Shown: positions 2,540-27,500, counted from the stretch's first letter. The stretch: DNA of 64,000 nucleotides from the human T2T-CHM13v2.0 reference genome, Homo sapiens (GCA_009914755.4 CP068257.2:1120001-1184000); one strand, 5' to 3'. The notes: generated by a model from the sequence alone, not told the origin. Numbers and translations: made by a program.

Positions 2540-2700
2540 GGAATGGAATGGAATGGAAGTTAATCAACACGAATGGAATGGAATGGAATGGAATGGAATG
2601 AACCCGAATGGAATGGAATGGATTGGAATGGAATGGAATGGAATTAACCCGAGCGGAAAGGAATGGAATGGAATGGAGTGGATTGGAATGGAATGGAATG
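2540..2700. repeat. Cluster of larger (35-45 bp) indel differences between HOR copies 1 and 2. The copy-2 counterpart is 24,120-24,270.
   Basis: Copy 1 has ~40 extra bp 'agttaatcaacacgaatggaatggaatggaatggaatgga' at ~2,558-2,597. Copy 2 has a 35-bp tandem duplication 'gaattaacccgagcggaaaggaatggaatggaatg' at ~24,196-24,265 that is single in copy 1 (~2,641-2,675). The net offset changes from 21,593 to 21,553. Confidence 0.7.
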
Positions 2701-5700: not shown

Positions 5701-8700
5701 TTAATCAACACGAATGGAATGGAACGGAATGGAATGGAAAGGAATGGAATGGAAAGGAATGGAATGGAATGGAATGGAATGAAATGGAAAGGAACGGAAT
5801 GGAATCAACACGAGTGGAATGGATTGGAACGGAATGGAATCAACCCCAGTGGAATGAACTGGAATGTAATGCAATGGGATGGAATGGAATCAACCCGAGT
5901 GGAATGGAATGGAATGGAATGAAATGGAATGGATTGGAATGGAATCCAATGGAATCAACTGGAATGGAATGAAATGGAATGGAATAGAATGGAATGGAAT
6001 GGAATAAATCCGGGTGGAGTGGAATGGAATGTAATGGAGTGGAATGTAAAGGAATTTAGTGGAATGGAATGGAATGGAATGGAATGGAATGGAATGGAAT
6101 GGATTGGATCAGAATGGAATCCAATGGAATCAACTGGAATGGCATGGAATGGAATGCAATGGAATAAATCCGGGTGGAGTGGAATGGAATGTAATGGAGT
6201 GGAATGGAATGGAATTTAGTGGAATGGAATGGAATGGAATGGAATGGAATGGAATGGAATGGATTGGATCAGAATGGAATCCAATGGAATCAACTGGAAT
6301 GGCATGGAATGGAATGCAATGGAATAAATCCGGGTGGAGTGGAATGGAATGTAATGGAGTGGAATGGAATGGAATTTAGTGGAATGGAATGGAACGGAAT
6401 GGAATGGAATGGAATGGAATAAACCCGAATGGAATGGAACGGAATGGAATGGAAATGAATGGAATGGAATGGAATGGAATGGAATGAAATGGAATGGAAT
6501 GGAATGGAATGGAATCAACCCGAATGGGATGGCATGGAATGGAATTGAATGGAATAGAATGGAACGGACTGTAATGGAATGGAATGGAATTGAATCAACC
6601 CAAGTGCAATGGAATGGAATGGAATGCAATGGAATCCACCCGAGTGGAATGGAATCGAATGGAACAGAATGGAATGGAATGGAATGGAATGGAATGAAAT
6701 CAACCCGAGTGGAATGCAACGGAATGGAATGGAATGGAAAGGAATGAATGTAATGGAATGGGGTGGAATCAACACGAGAGGAATGGAATGGAACGGAATG
6801 GATCGGAACGGAATGGAAAGGAATGGAATGGAATGAAACCGAATGGAATGGAATGGATTGGAATGGAATAGAATGGAATCAACCCGAGCGGAAAGGAATG
6901 TAACGGAATGGAGTGGAATGTAATGTAATGTAAAGGAATGGAATGAAATAGAATCAACACGAATGGAATGGAACGGAATGGAATGGGATGGGATGGAATG
7001 GAATGGAATAAATCCGGGTGGAGTGGATTGGATTGTAATGGAGTGGAACGTAATGGAATTTAGTGGAATGGAATGGAATGGAATGGAATGGAATGGAATG
7101 AAATGGATTGGATCGGAATGGAAGCCAATGGAATCAACTGGAATGGAATGGAATGGAATGGAATGGAATGAAATGGATTGGATCGGAATGGAAGCCAATG
7201 GAATCAAATGGAATGGAATGGAATGGAATGGAATGGAATGGAATGGAATGGAATAAATCCGGGTGGAGTGGAATGGAATGTAATGGAGTGGAATGTAATG
7301 GAATTTAGTGGAATGGAATGGAATGGAATGGAATGGAATGGAATGGAATGGAATGGAATCAACCCGAAAGGAATGGAATGGAAATGAATGGAATGGAGTG
7401 GAGTGGAATGGAATGGAATGGAATGGAATGGAATGGAAAGGAATGGAATGGAATCAACCCGAATGGGATGGCATGGATTGGAATTGAATGGAATGGAATG
7501 GAATGGAATGGAATGGAATGGAATCAACCCAAGTGCAATGGAATGGAATGGAATGCAATGGAGTACACCCGAGTGGAATGAAATGGAATGGAATGGAATG
7601 GAGTGGAATGGAACGTAATGGAGTGGAATGGAAAAAACACCAGGGGAATGAAATGGATTGGAATGAAATGGAATGGAAGGGAATGGAATGGAATGAAATC
7701 AACCCGAGTGGAATGGAACGGAATGGAATGTAATGGAAAGGAATGAATGGATTGGAATGGTGTGGAATCAACACGAGAGGAATGGAATGGAACGGAATGG
7801 AACGGAACGGAATAGAAAGGAATGGAATGGAATGAATCCGAATGGAATGGAATGGATTGGAATGGAATAGAATGGAATCAACCCGAGCGGAAAGGAATGG
7901 AATCAAATGGAGTGGAATGTAATGTAATGTAAAGGAATAGAATGAAATAGAATCAACACGAATGGAATGGAACGGAATGGAATGGGATGGGATGGAATGG
8001 AATGGAATGGAAGTTAATCAACACGAATGGAATGGAACGGAATGGAATGGAATGGAATGGAATGGAATGGAATGGAATGGAATGGAAGGAACGGAATGGA
8101 ATCAACACGAGTGGAATGGAATGAAACGGAATGGAATCAACACGAGGGGAATGAAATGGAATGTAATGCAATGGGATGGAGTGGAATCAACCCGAGTGGA
8201 ATGGAATGGAATGGAATGAAATGGAATGGATCGGAATGGAATCTAATGGAATCAACTGGAATGGAATGGAATGGAATGGAATAAATCCAGGTGGAGTGGA
8301 CTGGAATGTAATGGAGTGGAATGTAATGGAATTTAGTGGAATGGAATGGAATGGAGTGGAATGGAATGGAATGGAATGGAAAGGAATGAAATGGATTGGA
8401 TAGGAATGGAATCCAATGGAATCAACTGGAATGGAATGGAAAGGAATGGAATGGAATGGAATAAATCCGGGTGGAGTGGAGTGGAATGTAATGGAGTGGA
8501 ATGGAATGGAATTTAGTGTAATGGAATGGAATGGAATGGAATGGAATGGAATCAACCCGAGTGGAATGGAACGGAATGGAATGGAAGGGAATGGAATGGA
8601 AGGGAATGGAATGGAATGGAATAGAATGTAATGTAATGGAATGGAATGGAATGGAATGGAAGGGAATGGAATCAACACGAATGGAATGGCATGGAATGGC

Positions 8701-9370
8701 ATTGAATCGAATAGAATGGAATGGAATGGAATGGAATGGAATCAACCCAAGTGCAATGGAATGGAATGGAATGCATTGGAATCCACCTGAGTGGAATGTA
8801 ATGGAATGGAATGGAATGGAATGGAGTGGAATGGAACGGAATGGAGTGGAATGCAATAAACATCAGGGGAATGAAATGGATTGGAATGAAGTGGAATGGA
8901 ATGGAATGGAATGGAATGAAATCAACAAGAGTGGAATGGAACGGAATGGAATTGAATGGAAAGGAATGAATGGAATGGAATGGTGTGGAATCAACACGAG
9001 AGGAATGGAATGGAATGGAATGGAATGGAACGGAACGGAATGGAAAGGAATGGAATGGAATGAACCCGAATGGAATGGAATGCATTGGAAAGGAATGGAA
9101 TGGAATCAACCCGAGAGGAAAGGAATGGAATGGAATGGAGTGGAATGTAATGTAATGGAATGGAATGGAATGGAATGGAATCAACACAAATGGAATGGAA
9201 CGGAATGGAATGGGTTAGGATGGAATGGTATGGAATGGAAGTTAATCAACACGAATGGAATGGAACGGAATGGAATGGAATGGAATGGAAAGGAATGGAA
9301 TGGAATTGAATGGAATGAAATGGAAAGGAACGGAATGGAATCAACACGAGTGGAATGGAATGGAACGGAA

Positions 9371-9470
9371 TGGAATCAACCACAGTGGAATGAACTGGAA
9401 TGTAATGCAATGGGATGGAGTGGAATCAACCACAGTGGAATGAACTGGAATGTAATGCAATGGGATGGAG
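9371..9470. repeat. Exact 50-bp tandem duplication 'tggaatcaaccacagtggaatgaactggaatgtaatgcaatgggatggag' x2. It is also present in HOR copy 2 (30,969-31,068).
   Basis: Read directly: 9,371-9,420 equals 9,421-9,470 base for base. The same 100 bp occurs at 30,969-31,068. The paralogous positions 5,825-5,890 and 15,535-15,600 carry a single copy ('caaccccagtggaatgaactgg...' and 'caaccccactggaatgaactgg...'). Confidence 0.85.
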
Positions 9471-9479
9471 TGGAATCAA

Positions 9480-10600
9480 CCCGAATGGAATGGAATGGAA
9501 TGGAAAGGAATGGAATGGAACGAAATGGAATGGATCGGAATGGAATCCAATGGAATCAACTGGAATGGAATGGAATGGAATGGAATGGAATGGAATGCAA
9601 TGGAATGGAATAAATCTGGGTGGAGTGGAATGGAATGAAACGGAGTGGAATGTAATGGAATTTAGTGGAATGGAATGGAATGGAATGGAATGGAATGAAA
9701 TGGATTGGATCGGAATGGAATCCAATGGAATCAACTGGAATGGAATGGAATGGAATGGAATGGAATGGAATGGAATAAATCCGGGTGGAGTGGAATGGAA
9801 TGTAATGGAGTGGAATGGAATGGAATTTAGTGGAATGGAATGGAATGGAATGGAATGGAATGGAATGGAATGGAATGAAATGGATTGGATCGGAATGGAA
9901 TCCAATGGAATCAACTGGAATGGAATGGAATGGAATGGAATAAATCAGGGTGGAGTGGAATGGAATGTAATGGAGTGGAATGGAATGGAATTTAGTGGAA
10001 TGGAATGGAATGGAATGGAATGGAATGGAATGGAATGAAATGGATTGGATCGGAATATAATCCAATGGATTAAACTGGAATGGAATGGAATGGAATGGAA
10101 TGCAGTGGATCGGAATGGAATCAAATGGAATCAACTGGAATGGAATGGAATGGAATGGAATGGAATAAATCCGGGTGGAGTGGAATGGAATGTAATGGAG
10201 TGGAATGTAACGGAATTTAGTGGAATGGAATGGAATGGAGTGCAATGGAATGGAATGAAATGGATTGGATCGGAATGGAATCCAATGGAATCAACTGAAA
10301 TGGAATGGAATGGAATGGAATGGAATAAATCCGGGTGGAGTGGAATGTAATATAATGGAGTGGAATGTAATGGAATTCAGTGGAATGGAATGGAATGGAA
10401 TGGAATGGAATGAAATGGGAATGAAATGGATTGGATCGGAATATAATCCAATGGAATAAACTGGAATGGAATGGAATGGAATGAAATAAAATGGATTGGA
10501 TTGGAATGGAATCCAATAGAATCAACTGGAACGGAATGGAATGGAATATTTCCGGGTGGAGTGGAATGGAATATAATGGAGTGGAATGGAATGGAAATTA
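9480..10600. repeat. Example cluster of ~150-165-bp CCGG-containing HSat3 sub-blocks. Consensus core: AATAAATCCGGGTGGAGTGGAATGGAATGTAATGGAGTGGAATGKAATGGAATTTAGTGG ... AATGAAATGGATTGGATCGGAATGGAATCCAATGGAATCAACTGG.
   Basis: In this cluster the motif 'aataaatc(c/t/a)gggtggagtgg' lies at 9,612; 9,777; 9,940; 10,165; 10,325; 10,545. The same sub-block type clusters at 5,900-7,330; 8,250-8,520; 11,400-11,650; 13,050-13,350; 14,200-14,760; 15,650-17,600; 18,450-18,800; 20,200-21,330. There are ~40 copies per HOR unit, and the clusters are mirrored at +21.6 kb. Confidence 0.8.
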
Positions 10601-13600
10601 GTGGAATGGAACGGAATGGAATGGAAAGGAATGTAATGTAATGTAATGTAATGTAATGGAATAGAATGGAATGGAATCAACCCGAATGGGATGGCATGGA
10701 ATAGAATTGAATGCAATGGAATGGAATGGAATGGAATGGAATGGAATGCAATGGAATCCAGCCGATTGGAATGGAATGGAATGGAATGGAATGGAATGGA
10801 ATGGAATGGAGTGGAATGGAATAAACAGCAGAGGAATGAAATGGATTGGAATGAAATGGAATGGAATGGAATGGAATGAAATCAACCCGAGGGGAATGGA
10901 ACGGAATGGAATGGAATGGAAAGGAATGAATGGAAGGGAATGGTGTGGAATCAACACGAGAGGAATGGAATGGAATGGAATGGAACGGAACGGAATGGAA
11001 AGGAATGGAATGGAATGAACCCGAATGGAATGGAATGGATTGGAATGGAATGGAATAGAATCAACCTGAGAGGAAAGGAATGGAATGGAATGGAGAGGAA
11101 TGGAATGCAATGGAATGGAATGCAATGGAATGGAATCAACACGAATGGAATGGAACGGAATGGAATGGGATGGGATGGAATGGAATGGAATGGAAGTTAA
11201 TCAACACGAATGGAATGGAACGGAATGGAATGGAACGGAATGGAATGGAATGGAATGGAATGGAAAGGAACAGAATGGAATCAACAGGAGTGGAATGGAA
11301 TGGAACGGAATGGAATCAATCCGAGTGGAATGAAATGGAATGTAATGCAATGAGATGGAGTGGAATCAACCTGAGTGGAATGGAATCGAATGGATTGGAA
11401 TGGAATGGAATGGAATGAAATGGAATGGAATAAATCCGGGTGGAGAGGAATGGAATGTAATGGAGTGCAATGTTACGGAATTTAGTGGAATGGAATGGAA
11501 TGGAATGGAATGGAATGGAATGGAATGGAATCGAATGGAATGAAATGGATTGGATCGGAATGGAATCCAATGGAATCAACTGGAATGGAATGGAATGGAA
11601 TAAATCCGGGTGGAGTGGAATGGAATGTAATGGAGTGGAATGGAATGGAATTTAGTGGAATGGAATGGAATGGAATGGAATGGAATGGAATGGAATGGAA
11701 TGAAATGGAATGGAATCAACCCGAATGGAATGGAATGGAATGGAATGGAAAGGGATGGAATGGAATGGAATGGAATGGAATAGAATGGAATGGAATGGAA
11801 TGGAATGGAATGGAATCAACCCAAGTGCAATGGAATGCAATGGAATGCAATGGAATCCACCCGAGTGGAATGGAATGGAATGGAATGGAATATAATGCAA
11901 TGGAATGGAATGGAATGGAATGGAATGGAATGGAGTGGAATGGAACTGAATGGAGTGGAATGGAATAAACACCAGGAGAATGAAATGGATTGGAATGAAA
12001 TGGAATGGAATGGAATGGAATGGAATGGAATGGAATGAAATCAACCCGAGTGGAATGGAACGGAATGGAATGGAATGGAAAGGAATGAATGGAAGGGAAT
12101 GGTGTGGAAACAACACGAGAGGAATGGAATGGAATGGAATGGAAAGAAACGGAATGGAAAGGAATGGAATGGAATGAACCCGAATGGAATGGAATGGATT
12201 GGATTGGAATGGAATGGAATCAACCCGAGCATAAAGGAATGGAACGGAATGGAGTGGAATGGAATGGAATGGAATGGAATGGAATGGAATGGAATGGAAT
12301 CAACACGAATGGAATGGAGTGGAATGAAATGGGATGGGATGGAATGGAATGGAATGGAATCAACATGAATGGAATGGAACGTAATGGAAAGGAATGGAAT
12401 GGAAAATAATGGAATGGAATGAACCCGAATGGAATGGAATGCATTGGAATGGAATGGAATGGAATCAACCCGAGCGGAAAGGAATGGAATGGCATGGTGT
12501 GGAATGGAATGTAATGGAATGGAATGGAATGGAATCAACACGAATGGAATGGAACGGAATGGAATGGGATGGGATGGAATGGAATGGAAGGGAAGTTAAT
12601 CAACACGAATGGAATGCAACGGAATGGAATGGAATGGAATGGAGTGGAATGAACCCGAATGGAATGGAATGGATTGGAATGGAATGGAATTGAATCAACC
12701 CTAGTGGAAAGGAATGGAATGGAATGGAGTGGAATGTAATGTAATGTAATGGAATGGAATGGAATGGAATCAACACGAATGGAATAGAACGGAATGGAAT
12801 GGGATGGGATGGAATGGAATGGAATGGAAGTTAATCAACATGAATGGAATGGAATGTAATGGAATGGAACGGAACGGAATGGAATGGAATGCAATGGAAT
12901 GGAATGAAATGGAAAGGAACGGAATGGAATCAACACGAGTGGAATGGAATGGATAGGAATGGAATCAACCCGAGTGAAATGAAATGGAATGTAATGCAAT
13001 GGGATGGAGTGGAATCAACCCGAGTGGAATGGAATGGAATGGAATGGAATGGAACGAAATGGAATGGATCGGAATGTAATCCAATGGAATCAACTGGAAT
13101 GGAATGGAATGGAATGGAATGGAATAAACCCGGGTGGAGTGGAATGGAATGTAACGGAGTGGAATGTAATGGAATTTAGTGGAATGGAATGGAATGGAAT
13201 GGAATGAAATGGATTGGATCGGAATGGAATCCAAAGGAATCAACTGGAATGGAATGGAATGGAATGGAATAAATCCGGGTGGAGTGGAATGGAAAGTAAT
13301 GGAGTGGAATGGAATGGATTTTACTGGATGGAATGGAATGGAATGGAATGCAACGGAATGGAATGGAATGGAATGGAATGGAATGGAAAGGAATGGAATC
13401 AACCCGAATGGAATGGAACGGAAAGGAATGGAATGGAATGGAATGGAATGGAATGGAATGGAATGGAAAGGAATGGAATGGAATGGAATGGAATCAACCC
13501 GAATGGGATGGTATGGAATGGAACTGAATGGAATAGAATGGAATGGAATGGAATGGAATGGAATCAACCCAAGTGCAATGGAATGGTTTGGAATGCAATG

Positions 13601-16600
13601 GAATCCACCTGAGTGGAATGGAATGGAATGGAATGGAATGGAATGGAATGGAATGGAGTGGAATGGAACGGAATGGAGTGGAATGCAAGAAACACCAGGG
13701 GAATAAAATGAATTGGAATGAAATGGAATGGAATGGAATGGAATGGAATGGAATGGAATGAAATCAACCCAAGTGGAATGGAACGGAAAGGAATGGAATG
13801 GAAAGGAATGAATGGTAAGGAATTGTGTGGAATCAACCCGAGAGGAATGGAATGGAATGGAATGGAATGGAACGGAACGGAATGGAAAGGAATGGAATGG
13901 AATGAACCCGAATGGAATGGAATGGATTAGAATGGAATGGAATGGAATCAACCCGAGCGGAAAGGAATGGAATGGAATGGAGTGGAATGTAATGTAATGG
14001 AATGGAATGGAATGGAATGGAATGGAATCAACACAAATGGAATGGAACGGAATGGAATGGGATGGGATGGAATGGTATGGAATGGAAGTTAATCAACACG
14101 AATGGAATGGAACGGAATGGAATGGAATGGAATGGAAAGGAATGGAATGGAATGGAATGGAATGGAATGGAATGGAATGGAATGGAATGAAATGGAATGG
14201 ATTGGAATGGAATACAATGGAATCAACTGGAATGGAATGGAATGGAATGGAATGGAATGGAATGGAATGAAATGGAATGGATCAGAATGGAATCCAATGG
14301 AATCAACTGGAATGGAATGGAATGGAATGGACTGCAATTGAATGGAATAAATCTGGGTGCATTGGAATGGAATGTAACGGAGTGGAATGTAATGGAATTT
14401 AGTGGAATGGAATGGAATGGAATGGAATGGAATGGAATGGAATGGAATGGATTGGATCGGATTGGAATCCAATGGAAGCAACTGGAATGGAATGGAATGG
14501 AATGGAATTGTATAAATCCGGGTGGAGATGACTGTAATGTAATGCAGGGGAATGGAATGGAATTCAGTGGAATGGAATGGATTGGAATGGATTGGAATGG
14601 AATGGAATGGAATGGAATGGAATGGAATGGAATGGAATGAAAGGGATAGGATCGGAATGGAATCCAATGGAATCAACTGGAATGGAATGGAATGGAATAA
14701 ATCCGGGTGGAGTGGAATGGAATGTAATGGAGTGGAATGGAATGCAATTTAGTGGAATGGAATGGAAAGGAATAGAATGGAATGGAATGGAAAGGAATGG
14801 AATGGAATCAACCCGAATGGGATGGCATGGAATGGAATTCAATGGAATGGAATGGAATGGACGGTAATGGAATGGAACGGAATGGAATCAACCAAAGTGC
14901 AATGGAATGGAATGGAATGCAATGGAATCCACCCAAGTGGAATGGAATGGAATGGAATGGAACGGAATGGAATGGAATGGAGTGGAATGGGACGGAATGG
15001 AGTGGAATTGAATAAACACCAGGGGTATGAAATGGATTGGAAAGAAATGGAATGGAATGGAATGGAATGAAATCAACCCGAGTGGAATGCAACGGAATGG
15101 AATGGAATGGAAAGGAATGAATGGAATGGAATGGTGTGGAATCAACACGAGAGGAATGGAATGGAATGGAATGGAATGGAATGGAATGGAACGGAACGGA
15201 ATGGAAAGGAATGGAATGGAATGAACCCGAATGGAATGGAATGCATTGGAATGGAATGGAATGGAATCAACCCGAGCGGAAAGGAATGGAATGGAATGGA
15301 GTGGAATGTAATGTAATGTAATGGAATGGAATGGAATGGAATGGAATCAACACAAATGGAATGGAACGGAATGGAATGGGTTAGGATGGAATGGTATGGA
15401 ATGGAAGTTAATCAACACGAAGGGAATGGAACGTAATGGAATGGAATGGAATGGAAAGGAATGGAATGGAATTGAATGGAATGAAATGGAAAGGAACGGA
15501 ATGGAATCAACACGAGTGGAATGGAATGGAACGGAATGGAATCAACCCCACTGGAATGAACTGGAATGTAATGCAATGGGATGGAGTGGAATCAACCCGA
15601 GTGGAATGGAATGGAATGGAAAGGAATGGAATGGAATGAAATGGAATGGATCGGAATGGAATCCAATGGAATCAACTGGAATGGAATGGAATGGAATGGA
15701 ATGGAATGGAATGCAATGGAATGGAATAAATCTGGGTGGAGTGGAATGGAATGAAACGGAGTGGAATGTAATGGAATTTAGTGGAATGGAATGGAATGGA
15801 ATGGAATGGAATGAAATGGATTGGATCGGAATGGAATCCAATGGAATCAACTGGAAAGAAATGGAATGGAATGGAATGGAATAAATCTGGGTGGAGTGGA
15901 ATGGAATGTAATGGAGTGGAATGGAATGGAATTTAGTGGAATGGAATGGAATAGAATGGAATGGAATGGAATGAAATGGATTGGATCGGAATGGAATCCA
16001 ATGGAATCAACTGGAATGGAATGGAATGGAATAAATCCGGGTGGAGTGGAATGGAACGGAATTTAGTGGAATGGAATGGAAAGGAATGGAATGAAATGGA
16101 ATGGAATGGAATGGAATGGAATCAACCCGAGTGGGATGGCATGCAATGGAATTGAATGGAAGGGAATGGAATGGACTGTAATGGAATGGAATGGAAGGGA
16201 ATCAAACCAAGTGCAATGGAATGGAATGGAATGCAATAGAATCCACCCGAGTGGAATGGAATGGAATGGAATGGAATGGAATGAATGTAATGGAATGGGG
16301 TGGAATCAACACGAGAGGAATGGAATGGAATGGAATGGAAAGGAACGGAATGGAAAGGAATGGAATGGAATGATCCCGAATGGAATGGAATGGATTGGAA
16401 TGGCATGGAATGGAATCATCCCGAGCGGAAAGGAACGGAATGGAATGGAGTGGAATGGAATGGAATGGAATGGAATGGAATGGAATGGAATCAACACGAA
16501 TGGAATGGAACGGAATGGAATGGAATGGGATGGGATGGAATGGAATGGAAGTTAATCAACACGAATGGAATGGAAAGGAATGGAATGGAATGGAATGGAA

Positions 16601-19600
16601 TGGAATGGAATGGAATGAACCCGAATGCAATGGAATGGATTGGAATTAAACGGAATGGAATCAACCCGAGCGGAATGGAATGGAATGGAATGGAATGAAA
16701 AGGTTTGGATCGGAATGGAATCCAATGGAATGTAATGGAATGGAATGGAATAAATCCGGGTGGAGTGGAATGGAATGCAATGGAGTGGAATGTAACGGAA
16801 TTTAGTGGAATGGAATGGAATGGAATGAAATGGATTCGATCGGAATGGAATCCAATGGAATCAACTGGAATGGAATGGAATGGAATGGAATGGAATGGAA
16901 TAAATCCGGGTGGAGTGGAATGGAATGTAATGGAGTGGAATGGAATGGAATTTAATGGAATGGAATGGAATGGAATGGAATGGAATGGAATGGAATGGAA
17001 TGGAATGAAATGGATTGGATCAGAATATAATCCAATGGGTTAAACTGGAATGGAATGGAATGGAATGGAATGGAATGGAATGCAGTGGATCGGAATGGAA
17101 TCAAATGGAATCAACTGGAATGGAATGGAATGGAATGGAATGGAATGGAATAAATCCGGGTGGAGTGGAATGGAATGTAATGGAGTGGAATGTAACGGAA
17201 TTTAGTGGAATGGAATGGAATAGAATGCAATGGAATGGAATGAAATGGATTGTATCGGAATGGAATCCAATGGAATCAACTGGAATGCAATGGAATGGAA
17301 TGGAATGGAATGGAATGGAATGGAATGGAATAAATCCGGGTGGAGTGGAATGTAATATAATGCAGTGGAATGTAATGGAATTTAGTGGAATGGAATGGAA
17401 TGGAATGGAATGGAATGAAATGGGAATGAAATGGATTGGATCGGAATATAATCCAATGGAATAAACTGGAATGGAATGGAATGGAATGAAATAAAATGGA
17501 TTGGATTGGAATGGAATCCAATGGAATCAACTGGAATGGAATGGAATGGAATGGAATGGAATACTTCCGGGTGGAGTGGAATGGAATGTAATGGAGTGGA
17601 ATGGAATGGAATTTAGTGGAATGGAATGGAATGGAATGGAATTAAACCGAGTGGAATGGAACGGAATGGAATGGAAAGGAATGGAATGGAATGGAATGGA
17701 ATGGAATGGAATGGAATGGAATCAACCCAAATGGGATGGCATGGAATGGAATTGAATGCAATGCAATGGAATGGAATGGAATGGAATGCAATGGAATCCA
17801 CCCGATTGGAATGGAATGGAATGGAATGGAATGGAATGGAATGGAATGGAGTGGAATGGAATAAACAGCAGAGGAATGAAATGGATTGGAATGAAATGGA
17901 ATGGAATGGAATGGAATGGAATGAAATCAACCCGAGTGGAATGGAACGGAATGGAATGGAATGGAAAAGAATGAATGGAAGGGAATGGTGTGGAATCAAC
18001 ACGAGAGGAATGGAATGGAATGGAATGGAACGGAACGGAATGGAAAGGAATGGAATGGAATGAACCCGAATAGAATGGAATGGATTGGAATGGAATGGAA
18101 TTGAATCAACCTGAGAGGAAAGGAATGGAATGGAATGGAGAGGAATGGAATGTAATGGATTGGAATGCAATGGAATGGAATCAACACGAATGGAATGGAA
18201 CGGAATGGAATGGGATGGGATGGAATGGAATGGAGTGGAAGTTAATCAACACGAATGGAATGGAACGGAATGGAATGGAATGGAATGGAATGGAATGAAA
18301 GGGAAAGGAACAGAATGGAATCAACAGGAGTGGAATGGAATGGAACAGAATGGAATCAACCCGAGTGGAATGAAATGGAATGTAATGCAATGAGATGGAG
18401 TGGAATCAACCCGAGTGGAATGGAATCGAATGGATTGGAATGGAATGGAATGGAATGAAATGGAATGGATCGGAATGGAATCCAATGGAATCACCTGGAA
18501 TGGAATGGAATGGAATGGAATGGAATGGAATGGAATGGAATGGAATGGAATGGAATAAATCCGGGTGGAGTGGAATGGAATGTAATGGAGTGCAATGTTA
18601 CGGAATTTAGTGGAATGGAATGGAATGGAATGGAATGGAATGGAATGGAATGGAATCTAATGGAATGAAATGGATTGGATCGGAATGGAATCCAATGGAA
18701 TCAACTGGAATGGAATGGAATGGAATAAATCCGGTTGGAGTGGAATGGAATGTAATGGAGTGGAATGGAATGGAATTTAGTGTAATGGAATGGAATGGAA
18801 TGGAATGGAATGGAATGGAATGGAATGGAATGGAAAGGAATGGAATGAAATGGAATGGAATCAACCCGAATGGAATGGAACGGAATGGAATGGAAAGGAA
18901 TGGAATGGAATGGAATGGAATGGAATAGAATGGAATGGAATGGAATGGAATGGAATCAACCCAAGTGCAATGGAATGCAATAGAATGCAATGGAATCCAC
19001 CCGAGTGGAATGGAATGGAATGGAATGGAATGGAATATAATGCAATGGAATAGAATGGAATGGAATGGAATGGAATGGAATGGAGTGGAATGGAACTGAA
19101 TGGAGTGGAATGGAATAAACACCAGGAGAATGAAATGGATTGGAATGAAATGGAATGGAATGGAATGGAATGGAATGAAATCAACCCGAGTGGAATGGAA
19201 CGGAATGGAATGGAATGGAAAGGAATGAATGGAAGGGAATGGTTTGGAAACAACACGAGAGGAATGGAATGGAATGGAATGGAAAGGAACAGAATGGAAA
19301 GGAATGGAATGGAATGAACCCGAATGGAATGGAATGGATTGGAATGGAATGGAATGGAATCGACCCGAGCATAAAGGAATGGAACGGAATGGAGTGGAAT
19401 GGAATGGAATGGAATGGAATGGAATGGAATGGAATGGAATGGAATCAACACGAATGGAATGGAGCGGAATGAAATGGGATGGGATGGAATGGAATGGAAT
19501 GGAATGGAATGGAATGGAATGGAATCAACATGAATGGAATGGAACGTAATGGAATGGAATGGAATGGAAAATAATGGAATGGAATGAACCCGAATGGAAT

Positions 19601-21593
19601 GGAATGGATTGGAATGGAATGGAATGGAATGGAATCAACCCGAGCGGAAAGGAATGGAATGGCATGGAGTGGAATGGAATGTAATGTAATGGAATGGAAT
19701 GGAATGGAATCAACACGAATGGAATGGAACGGAATGGAATGGGATGGGATGTAATGGAATGGAATGGAAGTTAATCAACACGAATGGAATGCAACGGAAT
19801 GGAATGGAATGGAATGGAGTGGAATGAACCCGAATGGAATGGAATGGATTGGAATGGAATGGAATTGAATCAACCCTAGTGGAAAGGAATGGAATGGAAT
19901 GGAGTGGAATGTAATGTAATGTAATGTAATGGAATGGAATGGAATGGAATCAACACGAATGGAATGGAACGGAATGGAATGGGATGGGATGGAATGGAAT
20001 GGAATGGAAGTTAATCAACATGAATGGAATGGAATGTAATGGAATGGAACGGAACGGAATGGAATGGAATGGAATGGAATGGAATGGAATGGAAAGGAAC
20101 GGAATGGAATCAACATGAGTGGAATGGAATGGATAGGAATGGAATCAACTCGAGTGGAATGAAATGGAATGTAATGCAATGGGATGGAGTGGAATCAACC
20201 CGAGTGGAATGGAATGGAATGGAATGGAACGAAATGGAATGGATCGGAATGTAATCCAATGGAATCAACTGGAATGGAATGGAATGGAATGGAATGGAAT
20301 AAACCCGGGTGGAGTGGAATGGAATGTAACGGAGTGGAATGTAATGGAATTTAGTGGAATGGAATGGAATGGAATGGAATGAAATGGATTGGATCGGAAT
20401 GGAATCCAATGGAATCAACTGGAATGGAATGGAATGGAATGGAATAAATCCGGGTGGAGTGGAATGGAATGTAATGGAGTGGAATGGAACGGATTTTACT
20501 GGAATGGAATGGAATGGAATGGAATGCAATGGAATGGAATGGAATGGAATGGAATGGAATGGAATGGAATGGAATCAACCCGAATGGAATGGAACGGAAA
20601 GGAATGGAAAGGAATGGAATGGAATGGAATGGAATGGAATGGAATGGAATGGTATAAATCCAGGTGGAGTTGACTGTAATGTAATGCCGTGGAATGGAAT
20701 GGAATTCAGTGGAATGGAATGGATTGGAATGGATTGGAATGTAATGTAATGGAATGGAATGGAATGGAATGGAATGAAAGGGATAGGATCGGAATGGAAT
20801 CCAATGGAATCAACTGGAATGGAATGGAATTGAATAAATCCGGGTGGAGTGGAATGGAATGTAGTGGAGTGGAATGGAATGGAATTTAGTGGAATGGAAT
20901 GGAAAGGAATGGAATGGAATGGAATGGAATGGAATGGAATGGAATGGAATGGAATCAGCCCGAATGGGATGGCATGGAATGGAATTCAATGGAATGGAAT
21001 GGAATGGAATCAACCCAAGTGCAATGGAATGGAATGGAATGCAATGGAATCCACCCAAGTGGAATGGAATGGAATGGAATGGAACGGAATGGAATGGAAT
21101 GGAGTGGAATGGGACGGAATGGAGTGGAATTGAATAAACACAAGGGGAATGAAATGGATTGGAAAGAAATGGAATGGAATGGAATGGAATGAAATCAACC
21201 CGAGTGGAATGTAACGGAATGGAATGGAATGGAAAGGAATGAATGTAATGGAATGGGGTGGAATCAACACGAGAGGAATGGAATGGAATGGAACGGAATG
21301 GAATGGAATAAATCCGGGTGGAGTGCAATGGAATGTAATGGAGTGGAATGGAAAGGAATTTAGTGGAATGGAATGGAATGGAATGGAATGGAATGGAATG
21401 GAATCAACCTGAATGGGTTGGCATGGAATGGAATGGAATGGAGTGGAATGTAATGTAATGTAATGGAATGGAATGGAATGGAATCAACACGAATGGAATG
21501 GAACGGAATGGAATGGGATGGGATGGAATGGAATGTAATGGAAGTTAATCAAGACGAATGGAATGCAACGGAATGGAATGGAACGGAATGGAA

Positions 21594-24500
21594 TGGAATG
21601 GAATGAACCCGAATGGAATGGAATGGATTGGAATGGAATGGAATGGAATCAACCCGAGCGGAAAGGAATGGAATGGAATGGAGTGGAATGTAATGTAATG
21701 GAATAGAATTGAATGGAATGGAATCAACAGGAATGGTATGGAACGCAATGGAATGGGATGAGATGGAATGGATGTTAATCAACATGAATGGAATGGAACG
21801 GAATGGAATGGAATGGAATGGAATGGAATGGAATGGAAAGGAATGGAATGGAGTGGAATGGAACGGAATGGAGTGGAATGGAATAAACACCAGGGGAATG
21901 AAATGGATTGGAATGAAATGGATTGGAATGGAATGGAATGCAATGGAATGGAATGAATGGAATGGAATGGTGTGGAATCAACAGGAGAGGAATGGAATGG
22001 AATGGAATGGAATGGAACGGAATGGAAAGGAATGGAATGGAATGGAATGGAACGGAATGGAAAGGAATGGAATGGAATCAACCCGAGCGGAAAGGAATGG
22101 AATGGAATGGAGTGGAATGTAATGAAATGTAATGGAATGGAATGGAATGGAATCAACACGAATGGAATGGAACGGAATGGAATGGGAAGGGATGGAATGG
22201 AATGCAATGGAAGATACCCGAATGGAATGGAGTGGATAGGAATGGAATGAAATGGAATCATCCTGAGGGGAAAGGAATGGAATGGAACGGAGTGGAATGG
22301 GATGGGATCGAATGGAATGGAATGGAAGTTAATCAACACGAATGGAATGGAACAGAATGGAAAGGGATGGGATGGAATGGAATGGAATGGAAGTTAATCA
22401 ACACGAATGGAATGGAACGGAATGGAATGGAATGGAATGGAATGGAATGGAATGGAATGGAATGAAATGGAATGAACCCGAATGGAATGGAATGGATTGG
22501 AATGGAATAGAATGGAATCAACCAGAGCGGAAAGGAATGGAATGGAAAGGAGTGGAATGGAATGTAATGGAATGGAAGGCAATGGAATGGAATCAACACG
22601 AATGGAATGGAACGGAATGGAATGGGATGGGATGGAATGGAATGGAATGGAAGTTAATCAACACGAATGGAATGGAACGGAATGGAATTGAATGGAATGG
22701 AATGGAATGAAATGGAATGGAATGGAATGAAATGGAAAGGAACGGAATGGAATCAACACGAGTGGAATGGAATGGAACGGAATGGAATCAACCCGAGTGG
22801 AATGAAATGGAATGTAATGCAATGGGATGGAGTGGAATCAACCGGAGTGGAATGCAATGGAATGGAATGGAATGAAATGGAATGGATCGGAATGGAATCG
22901 AATGGAATCAACTGGAATGGAATGGAATGGAATGGAATGGAATGGAATGGAAAGGAATAAATCCGGGTGGAGTGCAATGGAATGTAATGGAGTGGAATGG
23001 AATGGAATTTAGTGGAATGGAATGTAATGGAATGGAATGGAATGGAATCAACCCGAATGGAATGGAACGGAATGGAATGGAAAGAAATGGAAAGGAATGG
23101 AATAGAATGGAATGGAATGGAATGGAATGGAATCATCCCGAATGGGATGGAATGGAATGGAATGGAATGGAAAGGAATGAAATGCAATGGATCGGAATGG
23201 AATCCAATGGAATCAACTGGAATGGAATGGAATGGAATGGAATGGAAAGGAATGGAATGGAATGGAATGGAATGAATCCGGGTGGAGTGGAATGGAATGT
23301 AATGGAGTGGAATGTAATGGAATTTAGTGGAATGGAATGGAATGGAATGGAATGGAATGGAATGCAATGAAATGGAATGGATCGGAATGGAATCCAAAGG
23401 AATCAACTGGAATGGAATGGAATGGAATGGAATGGAATGGAATGGAATAAATCCGGGTGGAGTGGAATGGAATGTAATGGAGTGGAATTTAGTGGAATGG
23501 AAACGAATGGAATGGAATGGAACGGAATGGAATGGAATGGAATGGAATCAACCCGAATGGAATGGAACGGAATGGAATGGAAAGGAATGGAATGGAATGG
23601 AATGGAATGGAAGGGAATCAACCCGAATGGGATGGCATGGAATGGAATGGAATGGAATGGAATCATCCAAAGTGTAATGGAATGGAATAGAGTGCAATGG
23701 AACCCACCCGAGTGGAATGGAATGGAATGGAATGGAAAGGAATGGAATGGATTGGAATGGAACCGAATGGAGTGGAATGGAATAAACACCAGGGGAATGA
23801 AATAGATTGGAATGAAATGGAATGGAATGGAATGGAATGGAATGAAATCAAACCGAGTGGAATGGAACAGAATGGAATGGAATGGAAAGGAATGAATGGA
23901 ATGGAATGGTGTGGAATCAACAGGAGAGGAATGGAATGGAATGGAATGGAATGGAACGGAATGGAAAGGAATGGAATAGAATGGAATGGAACGGAACGGA
24001 ATGGAAAGGAATGGAATGGAATCAACACGAGCGGAAAGGAATGGAATGGATTTGAGTAGAATGTAATGTAATGGAATGGAATGGAATGGAATGGAATCAA
24101 CACGAATGGAATGGAATGGAATGGGATGGGATGGAATGGAATGGAATGGAATGAACCTGAATGGAATGGAATGGATTGGAATGGAATGGAATGGAATTAA
24201 CCCGAGCGGAAAGGAATGGAATGGAATGGAATTAACCCGAGCGGAAAGGAATGGAATGGAATGGAATGGAGTGGAATGGAACGGAATGGAGTGGAATGGA
24301 ATAAACAACAGGGGTATGAAATGGATTGGAATAAAATGGAATGGAATGGAATGGAATGGAATGAAATCAACCCGAGTGGAATGGAACGGAGTGGAATGGA
24401 ATGGAAAGGAATGAATGGAATGGAATGGTTTGGAATCAACACGAGGAGAATGGAAGGAATGGAATGGAACGGAACGGAATGGAAAGGAATGAAATGGAAT

Positions 24501-27500
24501 GAACCCGAATGGAATGGAATGGATTGGAATGGAATGGAATGGAATCAACCAGAGCGGAAAGGAATGGAATGGAAAGGAGTGGAATGGAATGTAATGGAAT
24601 GGAATGCAATGGAATGGAATCAACACGAATGGAATGGAACGGAATGGAATGGGATGGGATGGAATGGAATGGAATGGAAGTTAATCAACACGAATGGAAT
24701 GGAACGGAATGTAATGGAATGGAATGGAATGGAATGGAATGGAATGGAATGGAATGGAATGAAATGGAAAGGAACGGAATGGAATCAACACGAGTGGAAT
24801 GGAATGGAACGGAATGGAATCAACCTGAGTGAAATGAAATGGAATGTAATGCAATGGGATGGTTTGGAATCAACCCGAGTGGAATGGAATGGAATGGAAT
24901 GGAATGGAATGGAATGGAATGGAATGGAAGGCAATGGAATGGATCGGAATGGAATCCAATGGAATCAACTGGAATGGAATGGATTGGAATGGAACAAATC
25001 CGGGTGGAGTGGAATGGAAGGGAATGGAGTGGAATGGAATGGAATTTAGTGGAATGGAATGGAATGGAATGGAATGAAATGGATTGGATCGGAATGGAAT
25101 CCAATGGAATCAATTGGAATGGAATGGAATGAAATAGAATGGTATAAATCCGGGTGGAGTGGAATGGAATGTAGTGGAGTGGAATGGAATTGAATTTAGT
25201 GGAATGGAATGGAATGGAATGGATTGGAATGGAATGGAATCAACCCGAATGGAATGGAACGGAATGGAATAGAAAGGAATAGAATGGAATGGAATGGAAT
25301 GGAATGGAATGGAATGGAATCAACCCGAATGGGATGGCATGGAATGGAATGGAATTGAATGGAATGGAATGGAATGGAAAGGAATGGAATGGAATGGAAT
25401 CATCCCAAGTGTAATGGAATGGAATGGAGTGCAATGGAACCCACCCGAGTGGAATGGAATGGAATGGAATGGAAAGGAATGGAATGGATTGGAATGGAAC
25501 GGAATGGAGTGGAATGGAATGGAATGGAATGGAATGGAATGGAATCAACCCGAATGGGATGGCATGGAATGGAATTCAGTGAAATGGAATGGAATGGAAT
25601 GGAATGGAATCAACCCAAGTGCAATGGAATGGAATGGAAGGCAATGGAGTCCACCCGAGTGGAATGGAATGGAATGGAATGGAATGGAATGGAATGGAGT
25701 GGAATGGAATGGAATGGAGTGGAATGGAACGGAATGGAGTGGAATGGAATAAACACCAGGGGAATGAAATGGATTGGAATGAAAAGGAATGGAAAGGGAA
25801 TGGAATGGAATAAAATCAACCAGAGTGGAATGGAACGGAACGGAATGAAATGGAAAGGAATGAATGGAAGGGAATGGTGTGGAGTCAACACGAGAGGAAT
25901 GGAATGGAATGGAATGGAACGGAATGGAATGGAAAGGAATGGAATGGAATGAACCCGAATGGAATGGAATGGATTGGAAAGGAATGGAATTGAATCAACC
26001 CGAGCGGAAAGGAATGGAATGGAATGGAGTGGAATGTAATGTAATGGAATGGAATTGAATGGAATGGAATGGAATCAACACGAATGGAATGGAAAGGAAT
26101 GGAATGTGATGGGATGGAATGGAATGGAATGGAAGTTAATCAACACGAATGGAATGGAACGGAATGGAATGGAATGGAATGGAATGAACCCGAATGGAAT
26201 GGAATGGATTGGAATGGAATGGAATGGAATCAACCCAAGCGGAATGGATTGGAATGGAATGGAGTGGAATGGAATGGAATGGAATGGAATGGAATGAAAT
26301 GGAAAGGAACGGAATGGAATCAACACGAGTGGAATGGAATGGAACGGAATGGAATCAACCAGAGTGGAATGAAATGGAATGTAATGCAATGGGATGGAGT
26401 GGAATCAACCCGAGTGGAATAGAATGGAATGGAACGGAATGAAATGGAATGGATCGGATTGGAATCCAGTGGAGTCAACTGGAATGGAATGGAATGGAAT
26501 GGAATGGAATGGAATGGAATGGAATGGAATGGAATAAATCCGGGTGGAGTGGAATGGAATGTAATGGAGTGGAATGGAATGGAATTTAGTGGAATGCAAT
26601 GGAATGGAATAGAATGGAATGGAATGGAATGGAATCAACCCGAGTGGATTGGAAAGGAATGGAATGGAAAGGAATGGAATGGAATGGAATGGAATGGAAT
26701 GGAATGGAATCAACCCGAATGGGATGGAATGGAATGGAATTGAATGGAATGGAATGGAATCAACCCAAGTGCAATGGAATGGTATGGAATGCAATGGAAT
26801 CCACCCGAGTGGAATGGAATGGAATGGAATGGAATGGAATGGAAGGAAAGGAATGGAGTGGAATGGAACGGAATGGAGTGGAACGGAATAAACACCAGGG
26901 GAATGAAATGGATTGGAATGAAATTGAATGGAATGGAATGGAATGGAATGGAATGGAATGAAATCAACCCGAGTGGAATGGATCGGAATGGAATGGAATG
27001 GAAAGGAATGAATGGCATGGAATGGTGTGGAATCAACACGAGAGGAATGGAATGGAATGGAATGGAATGGAACGGAATGGAAAGGAATGGAATGGGATGA
27101 ACCCGAATGGAATGGAATGGATTGGAATGGAATGGAATGGAATCAACCCGAGCGGAAAGGAATGGAATGGAATGGAGTGGAATGGAATCTAATGTAATGG
27201 AATGGAATGGAATAGAATCAACACAAATGGAATGGAACGGAATGGAATGGGATGGGATGGAATGGAATGGAATGGAAGTTAATCAACACGAATGGAATGG
27301 AACGGAATGGAATGGAAAGGAATGGAATGGAAAGGAATGGAATGGAATGGAATGGAATGAAATGGAAAGGAACGGAATGGAATCAACACGAGTGGAATGG
27401 ATTGGAACGGAATGGAATCAACCCCAGTGGAATGAACTGGAATGTAATGCAATGGGATGGAATGGAATCAACCCGAGTGGAATGGAATGGAATGGAATGA

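What the first reader, a model, noticed from the sequence alone, without database searches (positions are those of the whole stretch)
8870..21330. Nested older duplication inside the 21.6-kb unit: segment ~8.9-15.2 kb is paralogous to ~15.0-21.3 kb at ~6.1-7.2 kb offsets
Within one HOR copy the following long stretches recur at roughly 90-97% identity:
- 8,870-10,000 ~ 15,010-15,900 (offset ~6.15 kb; shared 'NQHKWNGTEWNGLGWNGMEWKLINT...NQP(Q/H)WNELECNAMGW').
- 10,045-10,525 ~ 17,015-17,530 (offset ~6.97-7.0 kb).
- 10,600-11,125 ~ 17,613-18,170 (offset ~7.05 kb).
- 12,041-12,541 ~ 19,181-19,450 (offset ~7.14 kb).
- 12,965-13,330 ~ 20,150-20,500 (offset ~7.18 kb).
- 14,505-15,150 ~ 20,650-21,270 (offset ~6.12-6.14 kb; shared rare variant 'gactgtaatgtaatgc').

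The offset drifts because ~1-kb groups of sub-blocks are present in one paralogue and not the other. The 21.6-kb HOR therefore seems to have grown from an older ~6-7-kb unit, which was later re-amplified as a whole. That gives three discernible rounds of amplification: pentamer, then ~6-7 kb, then 21.6 kb.
Basis: seen in the sequence. Interest (0 to 1): 0.5.

Follow-up and report, generated by a model that had tools for sequence, protein, structure and literature searches.

The report
Nested tandem duplications in HSat3 satellite
Inside a pure (GGAAT)n Human-Satellite-3-type array, a ~6.3-kb block was duplicated head-to-tail and later copied again inside a much younger 21.6-kb duplication; the finding is real, but it is the ordinary layered growth already described for this satellite.

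Summary
Observation confirmed. Segment A (~8,870-15,166) and segment B (~14,957-21,288) are collinear head-to-tail paralogues. Offsets run 6,116-6,166, then 6,985-7,180, then 6,122-6,142 bp.

all six listed pairs pass. The best non-self, non-twin match is at the claimed offset (89.7-97.5% identity counting indel bases), against 83-91% for the best match elsewhere.
- **Divergence:** A-B substitution divergence is 1.7%. The same pipeline gives 4.5-5.7% for arbitrary HSat3 and ~0.1% for the 21.6-kb twins.

Interpretation only partly supported. The order of events is right: A/B came first, then the 21.6-kb duplication. Four points need correcting.

1. The "21.6-kb HOR" is, in this window, a single two-copy tandem duplication (208-21,800 and 21,801-~43,405). 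Both outer edges are visible, and the junction lies in a perfect (GGAAT)7 run.
2. Only ~12.4 of the 21.6 kb comes from the A/B pair.
3. A layer of ~1-2-kb sub-units lies between the pentamer and the 6.3-kb unit. Both ~1-kb offset jumps are sub-unit-sized register shifts.
4. A third, older paralogue C (~54.9-60.4 kb, ~3.9% diverged) lies outside the 21.6-kb repeat. It keeps the segment that B lacks.

This is the known "nested tandem repeat" and unequal-exchange behaviour of HSat2/3. Interest is low.

The parts
8870..15166 (+). Paralogue A, copy 1. About four sub-units: a1 8,921-10,880; a2 10,881-12,039; a3 12,040-13,762; a4 13,763-15,071.
   Evidence: Anchor chain, tile edit distances, long-gap alignment blocks, landmark syntax 'Sraagggnttttttnr SraaggtnEgcaacaagaagggttnnEgrcaatttnEg', edges.
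14957..21288 (+). Paralogue B, copy 1, directly abutting A head-to-tail. Sub-units: b1 15,072-16,120; b1' 16,121-17,925; b2 17,926-19,179; b3 19,180-21,193.
   Evidence: Landmark syntax 'Scaagggtttg Saacttttng SraagggtnEgaacaagaagggttntEg'. Reciprocal best sub-unit hits a1-b1 97.2%, a2-b2 97.7%, a3-b3 96.8%.
13425..14509 (+). A-only ~1,085-bp segment (tail of a3 plus head of a4). It is absent from B and present in C, so B most likely lost it. It causes the offset drop from 7,176 to 6,142.
   Evidence: Alignment gaps of 704+330 bp. A tiles 13,401-14,301 hit C at constant offset 45,378-45,493 with D=4-27 (seven of the ten <=16), against D=27-40 in the B band. Both breakpoints lie in perfect (GGAAT)5-8 runs.
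15854..16805 (+). B-only ~950-bp segment (end of b1's TGGAATGG-type run plus head of b1'). It causes the offset jump from 6,116 to ~6,950-6,985. Whether it is an insertion in B or a deletion in A is unresolved.
   Evidence: Gaps of 100+40+384+315 bp in the alignment. b1' and c1 are reciprocal best sub-unit hits at 95.6%, but the tile matches to C are not above background.
30468..36759 (+). Paralogue A, copy 2: the 21.6-kb twin of A.
   Evidence: A1-A2: 3 mismatches in 6,380 aligned columns, 5 gaps totalling 35 b; 0.04-0.06% divergence.
36550..42891 (+). Paralogue B, copy 2: the 21.6-kb twin of B.
   Evidence: B1-B2 0.15-0.19% divergence. A2-B2 chains at offsets 6,106-7,176 mirror A1-B1.
54890..60400 (+). 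Third, older paralogue C. Sub-units: c1 54,890-56,248; c2 56,249-57,470; c3 57,471-59,235; c4 59,236-60,314. It lies outside the 21.6-kb duplication. The left edge is uncertain (54.0-55.0 kb).
   Evidence: The global-alignment score peak at ~53.9 kb (4,186) is close to the A-B peak (4,262-4,359) over a background of 2,700-3,400. Block alignments. Divergence 3.7-4.0% from A and B, with 98 C-specific sites against 29 A-specific and 20 B-specific. Under the null pipeline: 60% reliable, 3.75% divergence, run 1,186 bp.
208..21800 (+). Copy 1 of the recent 21.6-kb tandem duplication. It contains ~8.7 kb of other sub-units (x1-x7), then A, B and the short sub-unit x0.
   Evidence: Offset 21,593-21,603. 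21 substitutions and 29 indels, all multiples of 5 bp, over the copy. The left edge is where identity rises from ~95% to ~100%.
21801..43405 (+). Copy 2 of the recent 21.6-kb tandem duplication. The junction with copy 1 lies in a perfect (GGAAT)7 run at 21,800-21,834. The right edge is at ~43,405-43,430.
   Evidence: Identity per 100 bp is 98-100 up to 21,799/43,402 and 73-91 afterwards. Fine profile and sequences. Run lengths.
9371..9470 (+). 50-bp tandem duplication specific to A. It is present in A1 and A2 and absent from B, so it arose after the A/B split and before the 21.6-kb duplication.
   Evidence: Anchor 9,371-9,400 ~ 9,421-9,450 at offset 50. 48+2-bp gap against B at 9,382. The marker NQPQWNELECNAMGW occurs twice in A (9,374 and 9,424) and once in B (15,540).

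Best explanation
The region is part of a Human-Satellite-3-type array that has grown by successive local tandem duplications of different sizes. These arise by unequal exchange or replication slippage between misaligned repeats. Nothing in the sequence suggests any function for this internal structure. It is a record of how the array turns over.

The sequence supports this order of events.
1. Diverged (GGAAT)n carrying CAACCCGA-type interruptions became organised into 0.5-2-kb sub-units with a recognisable internal order of landmarks. These sub-units are now ~90-95% alike.
2. A run of four or five such sub-units (~6.3-7.3 kb) existed in at least two places. One lineage is C. The other is the ancestor of A and B. 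They differ by ~3.9%.
3. That ancestor duplicated head-to-tail, giving A|B (~1.7% divergence).
4. A and B then diverged in several ways: CpG-biased substitutions; many 5-bp-multiple indels from pentamer slippage; a 50-bp duplication in A; and two sub-unit-sized (~0.95 and ~1.08 kb) register shifts whose breakpoints lie in perfect (GGAAT)n runs. B lost the a3-tail/a4-head segment that A and C keep.
5. Very recently (~0.1% divergence) a 21.6-kb stretch containing ~9 kb of other sub-units plus A and B duplicated once, with its junction in a (GGAAT)7 run.

Shown: collinearity, identities, relative order of events, breakpoint contexts and copy numbers in the window.
Inferred: the molecular mechanism (unequal sister-chromatid or homologue exchange versus replication slippage or break-induced repair), rooting by a rough molecular clock, and the HSat3/human attribution.
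For: - Collinear anchors and offsets.
- Tile best-hit enrichment, 36/64 against ~2-3 expected.
- Alignment blocks and big indels.
- Same-pipeline nulls.
- Divergence hierarchy 0.04-0.19% < 1.63-1.79% < 3.7-4.0%, with site patterns 29/20/98.
- Third paralogue C.
- Sub-unit landmarks and positional reciprocal best hits.
- 35/40 A-B indels and 29/29 twin indels are multiples of 5 bp. 23/104 A-B substitutions are at CpG, although CpG covers only ~3.6% of positions.
- For both duplications the homology span equals one period.
- Breakpoints abut perfect (GGAAT)4-9 runs.
Against: - No independent copy of the locus could be obtained. The metagenome scan with an A/B-specific 33-mer gave 0 hits, so fixation, polymorphism and assembly correctness are untested.
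- Rooting C as the outgroup assumes roughly clock-like change and no gene conversion. A-B divergence is mildly uneven between blocks, 0.65-2.9% (my arithmetic from the blocks).
- The polarity of the first ~950-bp indel is unresolved.
- Breakpoint placement in pure pentamer runs is partly forced by alignment ambiguity, and runs of >=5 units already cover 20% of bases.
- The left 207 bp give little room to exclude a further, more diverged 21.6-kb copy upstream of the window.
Confidence: 0.85

Rival explanations
1. The ~6-7-kb block is the array's regular nested-tandem-repeat period. On this view A, B and C are three well-preserved units, and the other stretches (0.2-8.9 kb, 43.4-54.9 kb, 60.4-64 kb) are degenerate or rearranged units of the same kind. 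The 21.6-kb duplication simply copied about three of them.
For: C lies outside the 21.6-kb repeat. 21.6 kb is close to 3 x 7.2 kb. Part of the landmark syntax of 2,882-6,767 ('ScaagggtnnnEgcaacggggnEgScaagggtttnE') resembles a2-a3-a4/a1. Sub-unit x5 (5,385-6,698) is an a1/b1-type sub-unit, 95.3% to b1, and shares the NQPQWNELECNAMGW marker. An a4-type partial copy lies at 43,874-45,138.
Against: A against those stretches gives null-level values: 31-52% reliable positions, 4.5-5.7% divergence, runs <=646 bp. No collinear multi-sub-unit chain appears above background. Apart from x5, which pairs with b1, sub-units of X and Y have their best matches among each other or scattered, not in unit order.
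Confidence: 0.12
2. The near-identical 21.6-kb twin is an assembly artefact, a falsely duplicated satellite segment. Only the older A/B paralogy would then be biological.
For: Satellite arrays are hard to assemble. The twins differ mostly by pentamer-count indels (29) rather than substitutions (21), a class of difference that could include consensus errors.
Against: The two copies are not identical. They carry 21 substitutions spread over the unit, the flanks are distinct, and the junction is clean. Nothing in the sequence itself signals a collapse or a false join. This cannot be tested without reads.
Confidence: 0.04
3. A and B resemble each other because of gene conversion or homogenisation between neighbouring sub-units, or by chance similarity among HSat3 sub-units, not because a 6.3-kb block was duplicated.
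For: All sub-units are 90-95% alike, so short stretches match in many places. A-B divergence is uneven, with one 306-bp block at 99.3%.
Against: Collinearity holds over four consecutive sub-unit types and ~5.2 kb of aligned columns. Rare markers are private to A/B. Divergence is three-fold lower, and reliable runs four-fold longer, than any null. The head-to-tail geometry has a span of one period. Conversion patches would not reproduce the order and spacing of ~50 landmarks.
Confidence: 0.02

Closest known systems
Nested tandem repeats (NTRs) of Human Satellites 2 and 3, as defined in the T2T-CHM13 centromere study (Altemose et al., bioRxiv 10.1101/2021.07.12.452052)
   Same: Multi-kb repeat units built from a diverged (CATTC/GGAAT)n ancestor. 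The units are not made of equal-length monomers. [quoted passage not shown] Here the 6.3-kb and 21.6-kb layers and the variable 0.5-2-kb sub-units fit that description.
   Different: The published NTRs are array-scale predominant periodicities. In this window each larger layer has only two adjacent copies (plus one dispersed relative), so no periodicity in the spectral sense is demonstrated. Whether periods of 6.3 or 21.6 kb are catalogued for this array could not be found in the text held.
DYZ1, the ~3.6-kb HSat3 nested tandem repeat of Yq12 (T2T-Y, bioRxiv 10.1101/2022.12.01.518724), and the 1.77-kb HSat2 unit of chromosome 1 (PMC4022460)
   Same: Kilobase-scale units derived from the pentamer. 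Larger iterative tandem duplications are superimposed and were attributed by the authors to unequal exchange.
   Different: DYZ1 units are highly homogenised (>98%) over megabases. Here the units are few, 1.7-3.9% diverged and of unequal length. No sequence comparison with DYZ1 was possible with the tools.
Alpha-satellite higher-order repeats (HORs)
   Same: Hierarchy in which sub-units at the same position in different units are more alike (96-98%) than different sub-units within a unit (90-95%).
   Different: Sub-units are not discrete monomers of one length (0.56-2.05 kb). The contrast between layers is small. Copy number is two. This is why the T2T authors reserve 'HOR' for monomer-based arrays and use 'NTR' for HSat2/3.
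Smith (1976) unequal-crossover model of repeated-DNA evolution (cited in PMC4022460)
   Same: It predicts spontaneous emergence of nested periodicities, head-to-tail duplications whose span equals one period, and deletions or duplications in register with existing repeats. All of these are seen here.
   Different: It is a model, not a sequence family. The data cannot separate unequal crossover from replication-based mechanisms.

Membership tests
Human Satellite 3 (HSat3) | Dominant diverged GGAAT/ATTCC pentamer repeat on one strand | tested here: met
   7,138 GGAAT against 1 ATTCC in 64 kb. TRF period 5, consensus AATGG, 74% matches over 8,500-21,700. No gap >50 bp without GGAAT.
Human Satellite 3 (HSat3) | Interspersed CAACCCGA(A/G)T-type interruptions. 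Own knowledge of the classical satellite III description; a published 9q12 sat III primer carries AATCAACCCGAGTGCAAT (PMC2171959). | tested here: met
   550 ATCAAC landmarks, ~1 per 116 bp. The commonest continuations are ACGAATGG, TGGAATGG, CCGAGTGG, CCGAATGG and CCGAGCGG. CCAAGTGC occurs 23 times.
Human Satellite 3 (HSat3) | Assignment to one of the subfamilies A1-A6/B1-B5 by subfamily-specific 24-mers, and a chromosomal location | not testable with these tools
   No human or primate reference or 24-mer set is available. The metagenome scan found nothing. Species and chromosome remain inferred.
Nested tandem repeat (NTR) sensu Altemose et al. | Multi-kb unit derived from the simple repeat, arranged head-to-tail, not composed of a discrete number of equal-length monomers | tested here: met
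   A|B abut head-to-tail with offsets of 6.1-7.2 kb. Sub-unit lengths are 559-2,054 bp.
Nested tandem repeat (NTR) sensu Altemose et al. | The unit recurs as a predominant periodicity across the array or a sizeable part of it | tested here: not met
   Within the 64-kb window there are two adjacent copies of the 6.3-kb unit plus one dispersed relative, and exactly two copies of the 21.6-kb unit. The rest of the array is not available.
   Sub-units vary four-fold in length. Within-unit sub-unit identity is 90-95%, against 96-98% between positional homologues. Copy number is two.
Simple tandem segmental duplication by unequal exchange | Direct orientation; high-identity span equal to one period; junction inside sequence shared by both parental sites | tested here: met
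   21.6-kb event: span 208-21,800 equals the period of 21,593, with the junction in (GGAAT)7. A/B event: span ~6.3 kb against end offsets of 6.12-6.17 kb. No inverted repeats.

The most novel reading that the evidence does not exclude
The window may preserve an unusually clean, datable series of nested duplications with resolvable breakpoints: 50 bp, ~1 kb, 6.3 kb and 21.6 kb, with a third outgroup copy. All large rearrangement breakpoints fall in perfect (GGAAT)n tracts, and the indel-to-substitution ratio falls with age (29:21, then 40:104, then 55:247). If that pattern held array-wide and across individuals, it could calibrate the relative rates of pentamer slippage, kb-scale unequal exchange and point mutation in HSat3. 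It could also define a previously uncatalogued ~7.3-kb five-sub-unit ancestral unit for this array.
Probability: 0.2. Interest if true: 0.3.

Novelty: already known. Interest (0 to 1): 0.12.

Why it matters
It matters little beyond bookkeeping. It also corrects the frame: what looked like a multi-level 'HOR' is a short history of individual tandem duplications and sub-unit-sized deletions, of the kind already described for HSat2/3 as nested tandem repeats evolving locally.

For anyone annotating this array, three things are useful:
- the exact edges of the 21.6-kb duplication, which is a candidate structural polymorphism;
- the sub-unit landmark syntax, which gives an alignment-free way to compare units;
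- the A/B/C relationship, which gives relative ages of roughly 1 : 17 : 39 by substitution divergence.

Tried and rejected
- **blastn self-search with dust off:** timed out on this repetitive sequence. I replaced it with Sellers edit-distance fitting.
- **MAFFT global alignment of A1, A2, B1, B2 and C:** it forced non-homologous stretches together across the ~1-kb indels and gave absurd A-B distances of 16.7%. I discarded it in favour of pairwise long-gap alignments projected onto A.
- **Cheap-gap global alignment score as a discriminator:** the background is high (2,700-3,400 against 4,260-4,360 for A-B), and column identity of arbitrary pairs is inflated to 93-95%. I used it only together with matched nulls.
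- **TRF and the built-in repeat finder:** both see only the pentamer background. The repeat finder's ungapped 300-nt references match ~1,000 places at 60-80%. Neither is informative for the nested layers.
- **Polarising the first ~950-bp indel with C:** sub-unit b1' pairs with c1, but tile matches are not above background. Left unresolved.
- **Independent copies from elsewhere:** the A/B-specific 33-mer found nothing in metagenome contigs. The other collections (viral, prokaryotic genomes, phages, plasmids, E. coli) are irrelevant to a primate satellite and were not scanned.
- **Published period lists for HSat3 arrays:** not found in the text or supplements held.
- **Protein, RNA and structure tools:** not used.

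Full report
**What the window is**

The 64-kb window is uninterrupted one-strand (GGAAT)n satellite. It has 7,138 GGAAT against a single ATTCC and ~41-42% G+C throughout. TRF sees only a 5-bp period with consensus AATGG. No stretch longer than 50 bp lacks a GGAAT, and there are no inverted repeats in 8.5-21.7 kb. About every 116 bp the pentamer register is broken by an ATCAAC... landmark of the CAACCCGA(A/G)T kind (550 in the window). This is the classical signature of Human Satellite 3; a published 9q12 satellite III primer carries AATCAACCCGAGTGCAAT (PMC2171959). Species, chromosome and subfamily could not be determined with the tools available.

**Checking the observation**

- Rare 24-mers give offset peaks at 21.55-21.6 kb and then at 7.15, 6.1 and 7.0 kb.
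- Rare 16-mers within the first 21.6 kb form one collinear chain from 9,173/15,339 to 14,920/21,042. Offsets run 6,166 and 6,116, then 6,980-7,175, then 6,142-6,122.
- For all six listed pairs the best match, apart from the segment itself and its 21.6-kb twin, is at the claimed offset in both 21.6-kb copies. Identities are 89.7-97.5% when every indel base is counted. The best match anywhere else is 83.1-90.8%.
- 36 of 64 tiles of A have their best non-twin hit in the B offset band, which covers ~4% of the window.
- A long-gap global alignment gives five main blocks: 8,801-9,381 ~ 14,957-15,547; 9,430-9,737 ~ 15,548-15,853; 9,856-11,418 ~ 16,806-18,458; 11,419-13,424 ~ 18,544-20,600; and 14,510-15,166 ~ 20,652-21,288. 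Their substitution identity is 97-99%.
- That alignment scheme flatters any HSat3 pair, so I ran the identical pipeline on arbitrary 6.45-kb stretches. Nulls give 31-52% 'reliable' positions, 4.5-5.7% divergence and longest runs of 317-646 bp. A-B gives 74%, 1.7% and 2,683 bp.
GACTGTAATGTAATGC occurs only in A1, B1, A2 and B2, and so does the NQHKW...LINT reading. The NQP(Q/H)W... marker also occurs once outside, at 5,838/27,416.

**Anatomy**

The ATCAAC landmarks recur in a fixed order:
- a head: CCGAGTGG, ACGAGAGG, CCGAG(C/A)GG, two ACxAATGG, ACGAGTGG, CCxxAGTGG;
- a run of TGGAATGG-type landmarks spaced 150-250 bp apart;
- a tail: CCGAATGG, CCAAGTGC.

This order defines sub-units of 0.56-2.05 kb. 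A is four such sub-units (a1-a4). B is b1, b1', b2, b3. In an all-against-all comparison of 31 sub-units the reciprocal best hits are positional: a1-b1 97.2%, a2-b2 97.7%, a3-b3 96.8%. Other sub-unit pairs are 90-95% alike.

The two offset jumps are sub-unit-sized register shifts.
- B carries ~950 bp (15,854-16,805) that A lacks.
- A carries ~1,085 bp (13,425-14,509: tail of a3 plus head of a4) that B lacks.
- In landmark syntax, B has an extra 'gSaac' inside the t-run and lacks 'nEgrcaatt'.
- Breakpoints abut perfect (GGAAT)4-9 runs. Such runs of five or more units cover 20% of the sequence, and aligners tend to push gaps into them, so this is suggestive only.
- 35 of 40 A-B indels are multiples of 5 bp. 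23 of 104 substitutions fall at CpG, which makes up ~3.6% of positions. Both patterns are expected of genuine germline divergence in methylated satellite.
- The A/B homology begins at ~8,850-8,900 and ends at ~15,150-15,200. That is one period, so this is a simple two-copy head-to-tail duplication.

**A third paralogue**

A aligned along the window gives a third score peak at ~53.9 kb (4,186, against 4,262-4,359 for B1/B2, over a background of 2,700-3,400). Block alignments and tile chains place C at ~54.9-60.4 kb. Offsets are ~+45.2-45.6 kb from A and ~+38.3-38.4 kb from B. C keeps the a3-tail/a4-head segment that B lacks: tiles 13,401-14,301 match C with D=4-27 (seven of the ten <=16) at constant offset, and a4 and c4 are reciprocal best hits. 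B therefore most likely lost that segment. The polarity of the other indel is unresolved, because b1' pairs with c1 but not above the tile background.

**Order and relative age of events**

| Comparison (jointly reliable columns) | Divergence |
|---|---|
| A1-A2 | 0.04-0.06% |
| B1-B2 | 0.15-0.19% |
| All four A-B comparisons | 1.63-1.79% |
| A-C and B-C | 3.7-4.0% |

Five-way site patterns are 98 C-specific, 29 A-specific and 20 B-specific, with almost none separating the twins. The sequence of events is therefore: C split first, then the A|B duplication, then the 21.6-kb duplication. The ratio of divergences is roughly 39: 17: 1. A 50-bp tandem duplication at 9,371-9,470 is present in A1 and A2 but not in B, so it falls between the last two events. 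Absolute dates would need a satellite-specific rate, and I do not offer them.

**The 21.6-kb layer is not a multi-copy HOR here**

A coarse dot plot shows the 21.6-kb diagonal only between 0-21.6 and 21.6-43.2 kb.
- On the right, identity per 100 bp is 98-100 up to 21,799/43,402 and 73-91 beyond.
- On the left, window 1-207 against 21,594-21,800 has 6 substitutions and 10 indels, including a 45-bp patch of unrelated sequence. From 208 to 21,800 the copies differ by only 21 substitutions and 29 indels, all multiples of 5 bp.

Twin-level identity thus spans exactly one period. This is the signature of a single tandem duplication: left flank, U, U, right flank. Both outer edges are in view, and the junction lies in a perfect (GGAAT)7 run at 21,800-21,834. 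The ~95% similarity of the left flank to the end of U is at the level of ordinary sub-unit paralogy. It is what unequal exchange between two similar sub-unit ends would leave. Only ~12.4 kb of the 21.6-kb unit is the A/B pair. The remaining ~9.2 kb (sub-units x0-x7) aligns to A, B and C no better than arbitrary HSat3 does. The exception is x5, an a1/b1-type sub-unit.

**Comparison with what is known**

[quoted passage not shown] It names them nested tandem repeats, to distinguish them from monomer-based HORs. [quoted passage not shown] Altemose et al. 2014 cite kilobase HSat units and Smith's unequal-crossover model.

The present structure is an instance of that known behaviour. It meets the structural definition of an NTR: head-to-tail, multi-kb, with unequal sub-units. 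It does not show an array-scale periodicity within the window, and it does not meet the alpha-satellite definition of an HOR. I found no listing of 6.3-kb or 21.6-kb periods for any HSat3 array in the text and supplements held, so I cannot say whether this particular locus has been described.

**Verdict**

It is wrong or incomplete about the nature of the top layer, the number of layers, and the idea that the 21.6-kb unit 'grew from' the 6-7-kb unit. The phenomenon is ordinary for this satellite family, nothing suggests a function for it, and interest is low.

Noticed in passing
window 1-207, 21,800-21,834 and 43,405-43,430: Both outer edges and the junction of the 21.6-kb duplication lie inside the window. 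There are exactly two copies. The left flank is only ~95% like the end of the unit and contains a 45-bp unrelated patch (165-207). The junction sits in a perfect (GGAAT)7 run.
   Followed up: yes
window 54,890-60,400: A third, older paralogue (C) of the A/B unit lies outside the 21.6-kb repeat. It is ~3.9% diverged and retains the ~1.08-kb segment that B lacks.
   Followed up: yes
window 43,874-45,138: A partial a4-type sub-unit copy, matching A 13,401-14,800 at ~93-94% (one tile at 97%), lies immediately to the right of the end of the 21.6-kb duplication.
   Followed up: partly
window 47,301-51,900: There are local tandem duplications at other scales: 47,301-48,700 ~ 49,078-50,427 (offset ~1.75 kb, ~95%) and 49,801-50,800 ~ 50,921-51,879 (offset ~1.1 kb, ~96%). 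The sub-units involved are related to A's 10.9-12.6 kb part.
   Followed up: no
window 6,856-6,965 ~ 7,855-7,964: An anchor run at offset 999 bp suggests that sub-units x6 and x7 are a ~1-kb local tandem pair.
   Followed up: no
window 5,385-6,698 (and twin 26,963-28,280): Sub-unit x5 is an a1/b1-type sub-unit. It is 95.3% to b1 and 93.6% to a1, and shares the NQPQWNELECNAMGW marker at 5,838. This hints at an older relative of the unit's first sub-unit upstream of A.
   Followed up: partly
whole window (twin, A-B and A-C comparisons): The ratio of indel events to substitutions falls with age: 29:21 for the twins, 40:104 for A-B and 55:247 for A-C. Nearly all indels are multiples of 5 bp. This fits fast, reversible pentamer slippage, though under-counting in older alignments or consensus errors in the youngest pair could also contribute.
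   Followed up: partly
window 208-21,800 against its twin: Twin substitutions are unevenly spread: 6 fall in 2-4 kb and 7 in 19.8-21.8 kb, but 0-2 per 2 kb elsewhere. B1-B2 (0.15-0.19%) is more diverged than A1-A2 (0.04-0.06%).
   Followed up: no
window 62,565: This is the only ATTCC in 64 kb. It is an isolated variant, not a strand switch, and the array keeps one orientation throughout.
   Followed up: no
window 9,500-10,600 and 15,600-17,600: Runs of TGGAATGG-type landmarks spaced ~150-250 bp apart form short local repeats. Their copy number differs among A, B and C. This is the most length-variable part of the unit and the site of the unresolved ~950-bp indel.
   Followed up: partly
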